Shown here: piece after piece, positions 17,281 through 53,553 of the stretch
Position numbering within the stretch: position 1 is the stretch's first letter
Layout of the letters: each line of letters begins with the position of its first letter
Source: the human T2T-CHM13v2.0 reference genome, Homo sapiens
Assembly: GCA_009914755.4 (NCBI GenBank)
Contig: CP086569.2
Span: 61,088,001 to 61,152,000 of the forward strand
Length of the DNA: 64,000 nt
Reading direction: 5' to 3'
The notes under the pieces: model-generated
Database searches by the model: none
What the model was told of the DNA's origin: nothing
The model's input: the letters and a program-made list of their open reading frames with translations, nothing else
Position numbers and translations under genes: made by a program

Positions 17281-17578
17281 TTTTTTTTTAGACAGAGTCT
17301 TGTCCTGTTGCACAGGGTGGAGTACAATGGCGCCATCTTTGCTCACTGCAACATCTGCCTCACGGGTCCAAGCGATTGTCCTCCCTCAGCCTCCCAGGTA
17401 GCTGGGACTACACCACACTGGGACTACAGCAGCTGCCACCATGCCTAGCTAATTTTTTGGATTTTTAGTAGCGACAGCGTTTCACTGTATTAGCCAGGAT
17501 GGTCTTGATCTCTTCACCTTGTGATCCCCTTGCCTTGGCCTCCAAATTTGCTGGGATTACAGGCCTGAGCCAAGATCC
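17281..17578 (-). mobile_element. Alu copy, unit 8
   Basis: Same Alu sequence, with variants gactacagcagctgcc, agtagcgacagcg and tattagccagg. Confidence 0.9.
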
Positions 17579-19700
17579 ATATTTTTTAAATGAAAAAAAA
17601 TTTCAAAGGTACTCTGCTTGGTACAATAATCAAATGTATAAACTGAGGAATAAAACATAACCATGAAACCTACTTATAACTGCATATGGAAAATACAGAG
17701 GATAATTTTTTAAATAACATATTTTGAAAGCCTTAACTAGTAATTTGAAGAGTTGGCATTTGAAAGGCCAGTATGAATATACCTTCAAAGCAGCAACACA
17801 GGTTCCCCATGAGAAAAAGCAAACTCAGGGAAAATAAAACCATAAAGGTTCAATCTCTTCTGACCTTTGAAAGACACAGCACAGACAGTGGTCCTTAGGA
17901 CGAAGAGCAGGAGACCCCTAATTCCGTCACCATGGCGATAGGGCATAAACATTGCTGGGTGAGGGCACAATCCACATTGTGAGGTCCAACTGCTGCCAGG
18001 AAGACAGGAGTGCTTTTACATAGACCGAAAGGTCATTGAAGGCTCCGAGTTTTGTTTCAAGAACTGAATCCCAAGCCCACACGTTATTAGGCTGCGCTTC
18101 TTAAAACATGTTATGAGATGGGAAAAAGGGCACCCACAAACATACGTATACATTATGTATATAATAATATACAGTATCATATATATAATATATATAACCT
18201 ATGTATAATATTGTTTTACATCCTGCATCTTATATTATATATATTGTATAAAATATAATAATTGATAATATATAAGTTTTATATTTATACAATATGACAT
18301 ATAGTACATATTATAATTTATGACATATATAATGTATGTTATATATCATATATAGAATATATTATACGCTTAATATACGTATTACATATAAATTATACAT
18401 TATATATATTATATATAATATATCTGTTATATATAATACCCATTATGCATAATATATATATTATGTCTATGTTATATATAGTATAAAACAACATATCATA
18501 ATATATACTTGTATATATAAAATGCGACATATAATATATATTATATTTTATGACATATGTAATATATATTATATATTATATATAATACATTGTATGTATA
18601 ATACCTATATTAAATATATATTATATGACTATGTTATTAATTACATGTCACATAAGTTATATATTATATATTTTACATAGAATGTACCGGTTACATACAA
18701 TATATACTATGTTACCTATAATGTATAATTTATTACATGTAAAATAAAGAATGCAATATATTATGTATAATTTATAATATACAATATGTGGAATGTGATA
18801 TATATAACATATAATATATGTTATATGATATACAGTATATGATATATAACATACAATATATGATACCTAACATATATGGTATACAATATATATTTTATGA
18901 TATGTATTCCCTATGTTTTATATTCTGTTATATATAACTATTTGAAATTATATATAACTGTATAATATTTTATGTAAATATGTAATATAATATATATAAC
19001 TATATAATATATTATATATAACTATATATTATGTTATATATACTTTTATAACATAATTTACATAAAATATCATAATATAATATATATTATATTATTTCAT
19101 ATTACGTAATATATATTACATATCACCCAATATAAGTAACATACATAATATTATAATATAGATTATATTATGTTATATTAAATCTCATATATATCATGTA
19201 TCATATATTCTATAATATATATTATACATTATATAATATGTATGTTGTCTATTATATGATATATATAACTATATATATAATTATATTATTATACATATAA
19301 CTAGATAAACATGTAATTCTACATATTTTCATTTATAATATGTAGAATTATATAATCATATATAATTATTTATATTCTATAAAAAGTTATATCATTATAT
19401 AAATTATAATATATAAAAATTATAATATGTACTACAAATATATATGTTATATATCATATATGATATAGTACCTTTTTTATATATCATAATACATATAAAT
19501 GTGTTTTATGTTATCTATAATTATATAATTTCATATATAAGATGTATAATATGTATTATATATTATATATGTTATGTAATATATATAGTATATATAAGAT
19601 GACAGAGGATAAATATTATATACTATGACATATAAAATATATGAGGTTATATGTTACACATAAGGCATAGCACATAACATGTAATATATATCATCTATAA

Positions 19701-19998
19701 TTTTTTTTTAGACAGAGTCTTGTCCTGTTGCAGATGGTGGAGTACAATGGCGCCATCTTTGCTCACTGCAACATCTGCCTCACGGGTCCAAGCGATTGTC
19801 CTCCCTCAGCCTCCCAGGTAGCTGGGATTACACCACACTGGGACTACACCAGCTGCCACCATGCCTAGCTAATTTTTTGGATTTTTAGTAGCGACAGCGT
19901 TTCACTGTATTGGCCAGGATGGTCTTGATCTCTTCACCTTGTGATCCCCTTGCCTTGGCCTCCAAATTTGCTGGGATTACAGGCCTGAGCCAAGATCC
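19701..19998 (-). mobile_element. Alu copy, unit 9
   Basis: Same Alu sequence, with variants ttgcagatggtggag and gctgggattacaccac. Confidence 0.9.
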
Positions 19999-51133: not shown

Positions 51134-51431
51134 ATTTTTTTTTAGACAGTGTCTTGTCCTGTTGCACAGGGTGGAGTACAATGGCGCCATCTTTGCTCAC
51201 TGAAACATCTGCCTCACGGGTCCAAGCGATTGTCCTCCCTCAGCCTCCCAGGTAGCTGGGACTACACCACACTGGGACTACACCAGCTGCCACCATGCCT
51301 AGCTAATTTTTTGGATTTTTAGTAGTGACAGCGTTTCACTGTATTTCCCAGGATGGTCTTGATCTCTTCACCTTGTGATCCCCTTGCCTTGGCCTCCAAA
51401 TTTGCTGGGATTACAGGCCTGAGCCAAGATC
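51134..51431 (-). mobile_element. Alu copy, unit 22
   Basis: Same Alu sequence at the period offset. Confidence 0.9.
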
Positions 51432-53553
51432 CATATTTTTTAAATGAAAAAAAATTTCAAAGTACTCTGCTTGGTACAATAATCAAATGTATAAACTGAG
51501 GAATAAAACATAACCATGAAACCTACTTATAACTGCATATGGAAAATACAGAGGATAATTTTTTAAATAACATATTTTGAAAGCCTTAACTAGTAATTTG
51601 AAGAGTTGGCATTTGAAAGGCCAGTATGAATATACCTTCAAAGCAGCAACACAGGTTCCCCATGAGAAAAAGCAAACTCAGGGAAAATAAAACCACAAAG
51701 GTTCAATCTCTTCTGACCTTTGAAAGACACAGCACAGACAGTGGTCCTTAGGACGAAGAGCAGGAGACCCCTAATTCCGTCACCATGGCGATAGGGCATA
51801 AACATTGCTGGGTGAGGGCACAATCCACATTGTGAGGTCCAACTGCTGCCAGGAAGACAAGAGTGCTTTTACATAGACCGAAAGGTCATTGAAGGCTCAG
51901 AGTTTTGTTTCAAGAACTGAATCCCAAGCCCACACGTTATTAGGCTGCGCTTCTTAAAACAAGTTATGAGATGGGAAAAAGGGCACCCACAAACATACGT
52001 ATACATTATGTATATAATAGTATACAGTATCATATATATAATATATATAACCTATGTATAATATTGTTTTACATCCTGCATCTTATATTATATATATTGT
52101 ATAAAATATAATAATTGATAATATATAAGTTTTATATTTATACAATATGACATATAGTATATATTATAATTTATGACATATATTATGCATGTTATATATC
52201 ATATATAGAATATATTATACGGTTAATATACCTTTTAAATATAAATTATACATTATATATATAATATATAATATATCTGTTATAAATAATACCCATTATG
52301 CATAATATATATATTATGTCTATGTTATATATAGTATAAAACAACATATAATAATATATAATTGTATATATAAAATGTGACATATAATATATATTATATT
52401 TTATGACATATGTAATATATATTTTATATTATATATAATACGTTGTATGTATAATACCTATATTAAATATATATTATATGACTATGTTATTAATTACATG
52501 TCACATGTGTTATATATTATTTATTTTACACAGAATATACCGGTTACATACAATATATACTATGTTACCTACAATGTATAATTTATTACATGTAAAATAA
52601 AGAATGCAATATATTATGTATAATTTATAATATACAATATGTGGAATGTGATATATATAACATATAATATATGATATATGATATACAGTATACGATATAT
52701 AACATACAATATATGATACCTAATATATATGGTATACAATATATATTTTATGATATGTATTCTATATGTTTTATATTCTGTTATATATAACTATTTGAAA
52801 TTATATATAACTGTATAATATTTTATGTAAATATGTATTATAATATACATAAGTATATAATATTTTATATATAACTATATATTATGTTATATATACTTTT
52901 ATAACATAATTTACATAAAATATCGTAATAGAATATATATTATATTATTTCATATTACATAATATATATTACATATCACCCAATATAAGTAACATACGTA
53001 ATAGTATAATATAGATTATATTATGTTATATTAAATATCATATATATCATGTATCATATATTTTATAATATATATTATACATTATATAATATGTATGTTG
53101 TCTATTATGTGATATATATAACTATATATATAATTATATTATTATACATATAACTAGATAAACAAGTAATTCTACATATTTTTATTTATAATATATAGAA
53201 TTATATAATCATATATAATTATTTATATTCTATAAAAAATTATATCTTTATATAAATTATAATATATAAAAATTATAGTATGTACTACAAATACATATAT
53301 TATATATCATATATGATATAGTACCTTTATTATATATCATAATACATATAAATGTGTATTATGTTATCTATAATTATATAATTTCATATATAAGATGTAT
53401 AATATGTATCATATATTATATATGTTATGTAATATATATAGTATATATAAGATGACACAGGATAAATATTATATACTATGACATATAAAATATATGAGGT
53501 TATATGTTACATATAAGGCATAGCACATAACATGTAATATATATCATATATAA

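What the first reader, a model, noticed from the sequence alone, without database searches (positions are those of the whole stretch)
17300..53100. Long-range block duplication: ~9 kb at 17.3-26.5 kb recurs at 43.9-53.1 kb, and a two-unit Y-V block recurs three times
ORF starts 17785, 20205, 22621, 25040 and 27460 map to 44383, 46803, 49220, 51638 and 54058 with a constant 26,598-bp shift. Private variants are shared in the AT-rich segments: atatgaaatgcggcat...gacatgtaatatat at 20941 and 47536; gaatatattatacggttaatatacgtattaaatatgaattatac at 23191 and 49800; ataccttttaaatat...ctgttataaataatacc at 25620 and 52220. Similarity ends around 26,570/53,170. The Y-V pair (17785+20205) also matches 39546+41966 and 44383+46803. 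Small differences inside the blocks, such as CVFIFP at 22621 versus CGFIFP at 49220, and IRCLLL at 25040 versus IRGLLL at 51638, indicate post-duplication mutation or patchy gene conversion.
Basis: seen in the sequence. Interest (0 to 1): 0.5.

Follow-up and report, generated by a model that had tools for sequence, protein, structure and literature searches.

The report
Nested duplications in human DYZ2 satellite
The window is a stretch of the well-known human 2.4-kb DYZ2/HSat1B satellite. The long-range "block duplication" in it is real, but it is the ordinary trace of repeated unequal crossing-over inside a satellite array, not a gene family or a new kind of repeat.

Summary
Window 17480-26507 matches 44078-53105 at a constant 26,598-bp shift: 9,028 bp with 18 differences (99.8% identical). 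Unrelated units differ by about 2.4%. Every unit clusters with its counterpart at 100% bootstrap. The A-B unit pair does occur three times.

The interpretation needs correcting in three ways.
- The "ORFs" are not genes. The sequence is the human DYZ2/HSat1B satellite: a 2,420-bp unit made of a 5'-truncated old AluY, a GC-richer segment and a more than 85% AT segment.
- This is not a regular higher-order repeat. The unit order is A B C D E F A E F A B A B C D.
- The 26,598-bp spacing is a sum: 14,508 (6 units, older, about 0.2% diverged) + 7,253 (3-unit tandem duplication, 2 differences) + 4,837 (2-unit tandem duplication, 2 differences).

Both young duplications have a hybrid unit at the junction. 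In each, the crossover falls in a 0.8-kb tract that is identical in the two parental unit types. That is the signature of unequal homologous (sister-chromatid) exchange.

This behaviour is already described for Yq12, so interest is low. In passing, the array flips orientation at 57505/57506. The anatomy of that junction matches the published 5' breakpoint of the distal Yq12 inversion.

The parts
1..57505 (+). Head-to-tail array of about 2,418-bp DYZ2/HSat1B units. It holds 23 full units, 403-56020, plus partial units at both ends. The Alu lies on the minus strand.
   Evidence: BLAST of one unit against the window gives 97.3-99.9% identity, unit after unit. Unit lengths are 2,416-2,422 bp.
57506..64000 (-). 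The same satellite in the opposite orientation: 231 bp of a unit, two full units (57737-60154 and 60155-62574), then a partial unit. The junction at 57505|57506 has only 2 bp (TA) of microhomology.
17276..26507 (+). Copy 1 of the older block: units A1, B1, C1 and the first ~1,925 bp of D1.
   Evidence: 17480-26507 matches 44078-53105 with 18 differences. 17276-23119 matches 39037-44881 with 11 differences.
44078..53105 (+). Copy 2 of the older block: units A4, B3, C2 and the first ~1,925 bp of D2. Beyond 53105 the tail of D2 resembles no unit in the window and carries four 'bulk' alleles.
27155..42506 (+). Young 3-unit tandem duplication with a 7,253-bp period (E F A | E F A). 27155-35253 equals 34408-42506 with 2 differences in 8,099 bp.
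   Evidence: lag-3 line.
34408..35253 (+). Crossover interval of the 3-unit duplication, inside hybrid unit U15. Left of it U15 is B-type. Right of it U15 is E-type. Within it, the B and E parental units match (at most 1 difference in 846 bp).
39254..49741 (+). Young 2-unit tandem duplication with a 4,837-bp period (A B | A B). 39254-44904 equals 44091-49741 with 2 differences in 5,651 bp.
   Evidence: lag-2 line.
44091..44904 (+). Crossover interval of the 2-unit duplication, inside hybrid unit U19. Left of it U19 is C-type. Right of it U19 is A-type.
17282..17572 (-). An example of the 5'-truncated, old AluY that is part of every unit. It covers Alu positions 13-288, is 83% identical in ungapped columns, and has 15 extra bases as small insertions.
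   Evidence: AluY consensus recalled from memory. Sub-threshold matches to the Alu-derived mir-1268 family.
18140..18146 (+). ACATACG heptamer at the junction of the GC-richer segment and the AT-rich segment. It is present at this position in every unit.
   Evidence: Hallast et al. describe exactly this heptamer at this junction of DYZ2.
12487..14976 (+). Older F-type unit (U06), related to 29417-31906 and 36670-39159 with 5 differences in 2,490 bp each. It belongs to an earlier layer of duplication that cannot be fully resolved.

Best explanation
**What it is.** The window is a piece of the human DYZ2/HSat1B satellite, most likely from Yq12. It is a non-coding tandem array of 2,420-bp composite units: an old truncated AluY, a GC-richer segment and an AT-rich segment.

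**How the similarity arose.** The long-range similarity is the footprint of three nested copy-number events inside the array.
1. An older event, about 0.2% diverged, left two copies of a four-unit block A-B-C-D six units (14,508 bp) apart.
2. Much later, an unequal homologous exchange between misaligned sister chromatids duplicated three units (E-F-A, 7,253 bp).
3. A second such exchange duplicated two units (A-B, 4,837 bp). Both fell between the two older copies and pushed them to 26,598 bp apart.

Each young exchange crossed over inside a ~0.8-kb tract in the Alu/GC-richer part of the unit, where the two misaligned units match. Each left a hybrid unit at the junction.

**Shown:** the coordinates, the divergences, the hybrid units and the arithmetic. 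**Inferred:** the order of events, the involvement of sister chromatids, and the chromosomal location.
For: **Satellite identity.**
- The window consensus unit is 2,420 bp. GC is 24.5% and there is 1 CpG per 138 bp.
- ACATACG sits at the junction of the GC-richer and AT-rich segments in every unit.
- The Alu is 5'-truncated and about 17-20% diverged. The AT-rich part has 7-22% GC.
- These match the published DYZ2 description: 2,420-bp consensus, 24% GC, 1 CpG per 150 bp, the ACATACG junction, an AluY 20% diverged and a region more than 85% AT.
- The consensus is 99.2-99.5% identical to short contigs in 17 unrelated bacterial assemblies. Rhie et al. report this contamination signature for HSat1B.

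**Nested events.**
- The unit order is A B C D E F A E F A B A B C D, with 100% bootstrap support for every unit type.
- Near-identity segments lie at lags of 11, 3, 9, 2, 6 and 5 units.
- 14,508 + 7,253 + 4,837 = 26,598. Deleting one copy of each young duplication puts the two blocks at lag 14,508.

**Hybrid junction units.**
- U15 is B-type up to about column 150 and E-type after it.
- U19 is C-type up to about column 340 and A-type after it.
- The overlap intervals (846 and 814 bp) match both parents.

**Lineage markers fit the model.**
- A2, A3 and A4 share two differences from A1.
- B2 and B3 share T at 48417 against B1.

**Literature.** Within-array expansion of DYZ2 is attributed to unequal sister-chromatid exchange.
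Against: - If the older event were a clean 6-unit tandem duplication, the second copy should continue through E and F. Instead similarity stops at 26,507/53,105 inside unit D, so at least one more event (a deletion or a conversion) is needed.
- Unit E is itself a chimera: its left part is C-like and its right part is U04-like. F-like and E-like pieces also lie upstream (U04-U06) at lags of 7-8 units. The older history is therefore more tangled than one event and cannot be resolved uniquely within the window.
- Replication slippage or template switching could give the same tandem products as crossing-over.
- No human genome was available to search, so the Y assignment rests on matching published descriptions rather than on an alignment.
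Confidence: 0.82

Rival explanations
1. This is a regular higher-order repeat (HOR) like those of alpha satellite. A multi-unit block of 2 or 11 units would be the true repeating period of the array.
For: Units within a block differ by about 2.4%, while corresponding units of different blocks are 99.8-100% identical. That contrast is the one that defines HORs.
Against: There is no periodicity. Along the lag-11 diagonal only 9.0 kb of about 30.9 kb is near-identical, and along lag 2 only 5.7 kb of about 52.7 kb. The unit order A B C D E F A E F A B A B C D has no constant period. Units U01-U07 and the inverted units have no close partners.
Confidence: 0.03
2. A single-step dispersed duplication copied the 9-kb A-B-C-D segment directly to a site 11 units downstream, for example by break-induced replication with template switching. 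The A and B copies in between arose independently.
For: The block ends (17,276/17,480 and 26,507) are not what a clean tandem duplication predicts. The right end lies in the AT-rich part, where no shared identical tract is seen.
Against: It needs more events. The intervening A2, A3 and B2 share the same derived sites as A4 and B3 relative to A1 and B1. The exact arithmetic 14,508 + 7,253 + 4,837 = 26,598 would then be a coincidence. Both intervening duplications are much younger (0.025-0.035%) than the block divergence (0.2%), so they must have been inserted after the block was copied.
Confidence: 0.08
3. Long-tract gene conversion made distant units alike by overwriting them, with no change in copy number.
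For: Gene conversion is documented in Yq12. Two C1-specific sites (22676, 23120) carry the allele that is common in independent DYZ2 copies. The 846-bp tract shared by B, C2 and E units could be a conversion product.
Against: Tracts of 5.7-9 kb that are colinear across 2-4 units are far longer than usual conversion tracts. The young events are strictly tandem, with the lag equal to the duplicated length and one hybrid unit each, as expected for a crossover.
Confidence: 0.05
4. This is an assembly artefact. The near-identical blocks would be false duplications made while assembling a satellite.
For: Satellite arrays are error-prone. The two young duplications differ at only 2 positions each.
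Against: The copies are not identical. The junctions are clean hybrid units with the expected parental halves. The 9-kb copies carry 18 differences, including lineage-consistent ones. No reads were available to test this.
Confidence: 0.04

Closest known systems
DYZ2 / HSat1B satellite of human Yq12 (also on acrocentric short arms)
   Same: The unit length (2,416-2,422 bp, consensus 2,420) matches. So do the three-part composition, the ACATACG junction, the 24.5% GC, the CpG density and the age and truncation of the Alu. The window is 99.2-99.5% identical to independent copies. Local multi-unit duplications and an orientation switch are also seen.
   Different: Nothing in kind differs. The window's consensus differs from the independent ('bulk') copies at about 0.7% of positions, and several of these alleles are nearly fixed in the window. 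That pattern is as reported for peripheral Yq12 arrays and acrocentric copies.
Alpha-satellite higher-order repeats
   Same: Diverged neighbouring units contrast with near-identical units at a multi-unit distance. Both evolve by unequal exchange.
   Different: No constant multi-unit period is present, only a few irregular, nested local duplications.
Recent iterative duplications described in T2T-Y Yq12 (Rhie et al. 2023, Extended Data Fig. 8)
   Same: Nested tandem duplications and small-scale expansions inside HSat1B sub-arrays are attributed there to unequal exchange.
   Different: The published examples are mostly at a scale of 100 kb to 5 Mb. Here the same process is seen at 5-15 kb, with base-level junctions.

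Membership tests
DYZ2 / HSat1B | Tandem unit of about 2.4 kb (published consensus 2,420 bp) | tested here: met
   25 full units measure 2,416-2,422 bp, and the window consensus is 2,420 bp.
DYZ2 / HSat1B | Composite unit: a 5'-truncated ancient AluY (~20% diverged), a GC-richer 'HSATI' segment and a >85% AT segment | tested here: met
   The Alu covers positions 13-288 and is 83% identical, plus small insertions totalling 15 bp. 100-bp bins give 39-58% GC in the GC-richer part (one bin at 24%), then 7-22% GC for about 1.4 kb. The AluY consensus was recalled from memory. No RepeatMasker/Dfam tool was available to label the HSATI part.
DYZ2 / HSat1B | ACATACG heptamer at the junction of the HSATI and AT-rich segments | tested here: met
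   It is present once per unit at the expected position in all units of both orientations. It is described.
DYZ2 / HSat1B | Base composition of about 24% GC and about 1 CpG per 150 bp | tested here: met
   24.5% GC and 1 CpG per 138 bp, against the published figures.
DYZ2 / HSat1B | High sequence identity to independently sequenced copies | tested here: met
   15 of the 17 short contaminant contigs in unrelated bacterial assemblies are 98.4-99.5% identical to the window consensus, and most are 99.2-99.5%. The other two are 96.9% and 97.9%. The test is indirect: the contigs are not labelled human, but Rhie et al. report this contamination for HSat1B.
DYZ2 / HSat1B | Location on Yq12 (or on an acrocentric short arm) | not testable with these tools
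   No human genome collection was available. The only hint is that the anatomy of the orientation switch matches the published 5' breakpoint of the distal Yq12 inversion.
Higher-order repeat (HOR) | A multi-unit block repeated head-to-tail with a constant period over the array | tested here: not met
   Near-identity at lags of 2, 3, 5, 6, 9 and 11 units covers only 3-9 kb each. The rest of each diagonal is at background divergence.
Tandem duplication by unequal homologous exchange | The copies are adjacent, with the lag equal to the duplicated length | tested here: met
   The duplications at lags of 7,253 and 4,837 bp are directly tandem.
Tandem duplication by unequal homologous exchange | A hybrid unit at the junction, whose two sides match two different parental unit types and overlap in a tract identical in both | tested here: met
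   U15 is B-left/E-right with its overlap at 34408-35253. U19 is C-left/A-right with its overlap at 44091-44904.
Tandem duplication by unequal homologous exchange | The same criteria applied to the older 6-unit event | tested here: inconclusive
   The spacing reduces to exactly 6 units. However, similarity covers only 9.2 of 14.5 kb, and the right end has no recognisable hybrid partner.

The most novel reading that the evidence does not exclude
The window may sit at the 5' breakpoint of the fixed distal Yq12 inversion. It shows, at base resolution, that the DYZ2 array right next to that breakpoint is still being remodelled. Both young crossovers, and the left edge of the older block, fall in the Alu/GC-richer part of the unit. 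This hints at a preferred exchange site inside the DYZ2 unit rather than random breakage.
Probability: 0.25. Interest if true: 0.3.

Novelty: already known. Interest (0 to 1): 0.1.

Why it matters
It matters little beyond bookkeeping. The base-level reconstruction (hybrid junction units, and 26,598 = 14,508 + 7,253 + 4,837) is a clean small-scale example of the unequal-exchange model already proposed for Yq12. If the location is confirmed, the two young duplications could serve as markers of Y lineages.

Tried and rejected
- **Coding potential.** There is no ORF of 80 aa or more in 64 kb. The longest ORFs in one unit are 61 aa or less, and the two tested have no Pfam match. Rejected.
- **Structured RNA.** Only sub-threshold matches to the Alu-derived mir-1268 family were found (35 bits against a gathering score of 83). 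Rejected as anything other than Alu.
- **Full history of the older layer.** I tried several crossover scenarios using the mosaic painting. E is C-left plus U04-right, the tail of D1 is B-like, and F-like sequence lies in U05/U06. None of the scenarios is unique, because the upstream array runs off the window. Left open.
- **Y versus acrocentric.** No human reference was available. The contaminant contigs show that the window array is a slightly diverged sub-family, but they cannot assign it to a chromosome.
- **Microhomology at the inversion junction.** My first reading was 4 bp (TAAT). Comparison with neighbouring units on both sides corrected it to 2 bp (TA).
- **One conversion tract for the two C1-specific 'bulk' alleles (22676, 23120).** Doubtful, because the intervening site (column 907) does not carry the bulk allele.
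Full report
**What the window is.** The whole 64-kb window is a tandem array with a period of about 2,418 bp. GC-richer (~40%) and extremely AT-rich kilobases alternate. BLAST of one unit against the window finds 23 full units head to tail on the + strand (403-56020), plus partial units at both ends of that stretch. 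The same unit then appears in the opposite orientation from 57506 to the end.

Each unit has three parts.
- A minus-strand Alu, for example 17282-17572. It aligns to positions 13-288 of the AluY consensus (recalled from memory) at 83% identity, with 15 extra bases as small insertions.
- About 570 bp of mostly 39-58% GC.
- About 1.45 kb of 7-22% GC.

The window has 24.5% GC and 1 CpG per 138 bp. Its consensus unit is exactly 2,420 bp. The heptamer ACATACG sits at the junction of the GC-richer and AT-rich parts in every unit.

These are the published properties of the human DYZ2/HSat1B satellite. Hallast et al. give a unit of about 2.4 kb with a 2,420-bp consensus. [quoted passage not shown] As an independent check, I searched for a 51-mer from the non-Alu part. 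It occurs in 17 unrelated bacterial assemblies, nearly all on contigs of 0.6-2.5 kb. Most of these contigs are 99.2-99.5% identical to the window consensus. This is the human HSat1B contamination that Rhie et al. reported.

Nothing here is coding. No ORF reaches 80 aa. The only Rfam matches are sub-threshold hits to the Alu-derived mir-1268 family.

**Checking the observation.** I aligned the + strand array to itself along every unit diagonal. I then cut each alignment into near-identical segments. The largest segment is 17480-26507 against 44078-53105: a lag of 26,598 bp, 9,028 bp long, with 18 differences (99.8% identical).

In a multiple alignment of the 25 full units, unrelated pairs differ at 33-71 columns (median 60, 2.4%). 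Counterparts differ at 0-8 columns, or 21 for the D pair, because the block ends inside D. A neighbour-joining tree groups every unit with its counterpart at 100% bootstrap.

The one 26,599 shift comes from a 1-bp deletion at 22117, later cancelled by one at 50815. Two of the three 'private variant' strings are not private to the pair.

**What the pattern really is.** Labelling units by type gives the following order, from U08 (17327) to U22 (51181): A B C D E F A E F A B A B C D. There is also an older F at U06 and a half-E at U04. This is not a periodic higher-order repeat. Near-identity occurs at lags of 2, 3, 5, 6, 9 and 11 units, but only over 3-9 kb each.

Two segments are much younger than the rest.
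- 27155-35253 = 34408-42506: lag 7,253, 2 differences in 8,099 bp.
- 39254-44904 = 44091-49741: lag 4,837, 2 differences in 5,651 bp.

Both are strictly tandem, and each has a hybrid unit at its junction.
- U15 matches the B units on its left and unit E on its right.
- U19 matches the C units on its left and the A units on its right.

In each case the two matches overlap in a tract of 846 or 814 bp (34408-35253 and 44091-44904) that matches both parental types. A crossover between misaligned homologous units leaves exactly this product.

Removing one copy of each young duplication leaves A B C D E F A B C D. The two blocks are then exactly 14,508 bp (6 units) apart, and 14,508 + 7,253 + 4,837 = 26,598.

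Lineage markers agree with this order of events. A2, A3 and A4 share two differences from A1. B2 and B3 share a T at 48417 that B1 lacks.

**The differences between the two 9-kb copies.** Of the 18 differences, 14 are singletons in the window, 10 in copy 1 and 4 in copy 2. They are best read as point mutations since the duplication.

The CVFIFP site (22676) and the nearby 23120 are also unique in the window. However, both carry the allele that dominates in the independent contaminant copies. Conversion from a unit outside the window, or retained polymorphism, is as likely as new mutation for these two.

One difference (17492) is explained by the hybrid left end of A4. One (52378) is a CpG-to-TpG change shared with the C and E units.

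Rough ages follow from the pedigree rate quoted for the male-specific Y including Yq12, 1.99e-7 per bp per generation.
- The older layer, at 0.2% divergence, corresponds to roughly 5,000 generations.
- The young events, at 0.025-0.035%, correspond to roughly 600-900 generations.
- With a euchromatic rate these ages would be several-fold larger.

These ages are inference, and they assume the window is on the Y.

**Limits of the model.** The older event is not a clean 6-unit tandem duplication. Similarity stops inside D, at 26,507/53,105. The tail of D2 resembles no unit in the window and carries four 'bulk' alleles. Unit E is itself a chimera of a C-like left part and a U04-like right part. F-like sequence lies upstream at lags of 7-8 units. 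Several exchanges or conversions must therefore precede the three events I can order. The window is too short to resolve them uniquely.

**Comparison with what is known.** Rhie et al. describe recent iterative tandem duplications in Yq12. [quoted passage not shown] A 2026 preprint reports de novo variants and gene conversion concentrated in Yq12. The finding is thus a small-scale, base-resolved instance of a known process in a known satellite.

**Seen in passing.** At 57505|57506 the + strand unit breaks off in its AT-rich part. It is joined to a forward-oriented Alu that lacks its first ~14 nt. Only 2 bp (TA) of microhomology is present, so this is a non-homologous junction.

[quoted passage not shown] They place the rest of the Alu head at the 3' breakpoint. 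The anatomy is the same.

The window's slightly diverged sub-family also fits their statement that peripheral arrays are more diverged. I could not test the location, because no human genome was available.

**Verdict.** The phenomenon is already known, and interest is low.

Noticed in passing
window 57505-57506 (array inverted from 57506 to 64000): The satellite array switches orientation. The AT-rich part of a + strand unit is joined to a forward Alu that lacks its first ~14 nt, with only 2 bp (TA) of microhomology. The anatomy matches the published description of the 5' breakpoint of the fixed distal Yq12 inversion (Hallast et al. 2023 supplement).
   Followed up: partly
window 27155-42506: A 3-unit (7,253-bp) tandem duplication, E-F-A twice, has only 2 differences in 8.1 kb. 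It gives the strongest off-diagonal signal in the window (10,746 shared 24-mers), but the finding does not mention it.
   Followed up: yes
whole window versus loci L001-L017: The window's units carry nearly fixed alleles (alignment columns 513, 957, 1225, 1538, 1961, 2062) that differ from the allele in independent HSat1B copies. The window consensus differs from those copies by about 0.7%. This array is therefore a slightly diverged sub-family, as reported for peripheral Yq12 and acrocentric copies.
   Followed up: partly
L006 5897-6920 (NZ_HF570958.1, Nostocoides japonicum T1-X7 scaffold): A 1,024-bp human HSat1B fragment sits between two runs of N inside a 5.16-Mb high-GC bacterial scaffold. 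It is a contaminant contig that was scaffolded into a bacterial genome. Sixteen other bacterial assemblies carry HSat1B on short contigs.
   Followed up: partly
window 26702-28471 and 28407-30052 (unit E1, U12): Unit E is a chimera. Its left ~1,400 bp is C-like (4-6 differences from the C units) and its right part is U04-like (2 differences in 1,646 bp). This records an older unequal exchange or conversion that I could not place in a unique history.
   Followed up: partly
window 16719, 26394, 52992: An extra ACATACG occurs inside the AT-rich part of units U07, D1 and D2 only, at the same unit position. D1 and D2 share it as expected. The same variant in U07 hints at an older relationship between U07 and the D units.
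   Followed up: no
e.g. window 1307-1744, 6143-6580, 18238-18668: The AT-rich part of the unit contains an internal ~230-bp direct repeat: 1.9 copies at about 76% identity. The 'simple' AT-rich segment therefore has an older substructure of its own.
   Followed up: no
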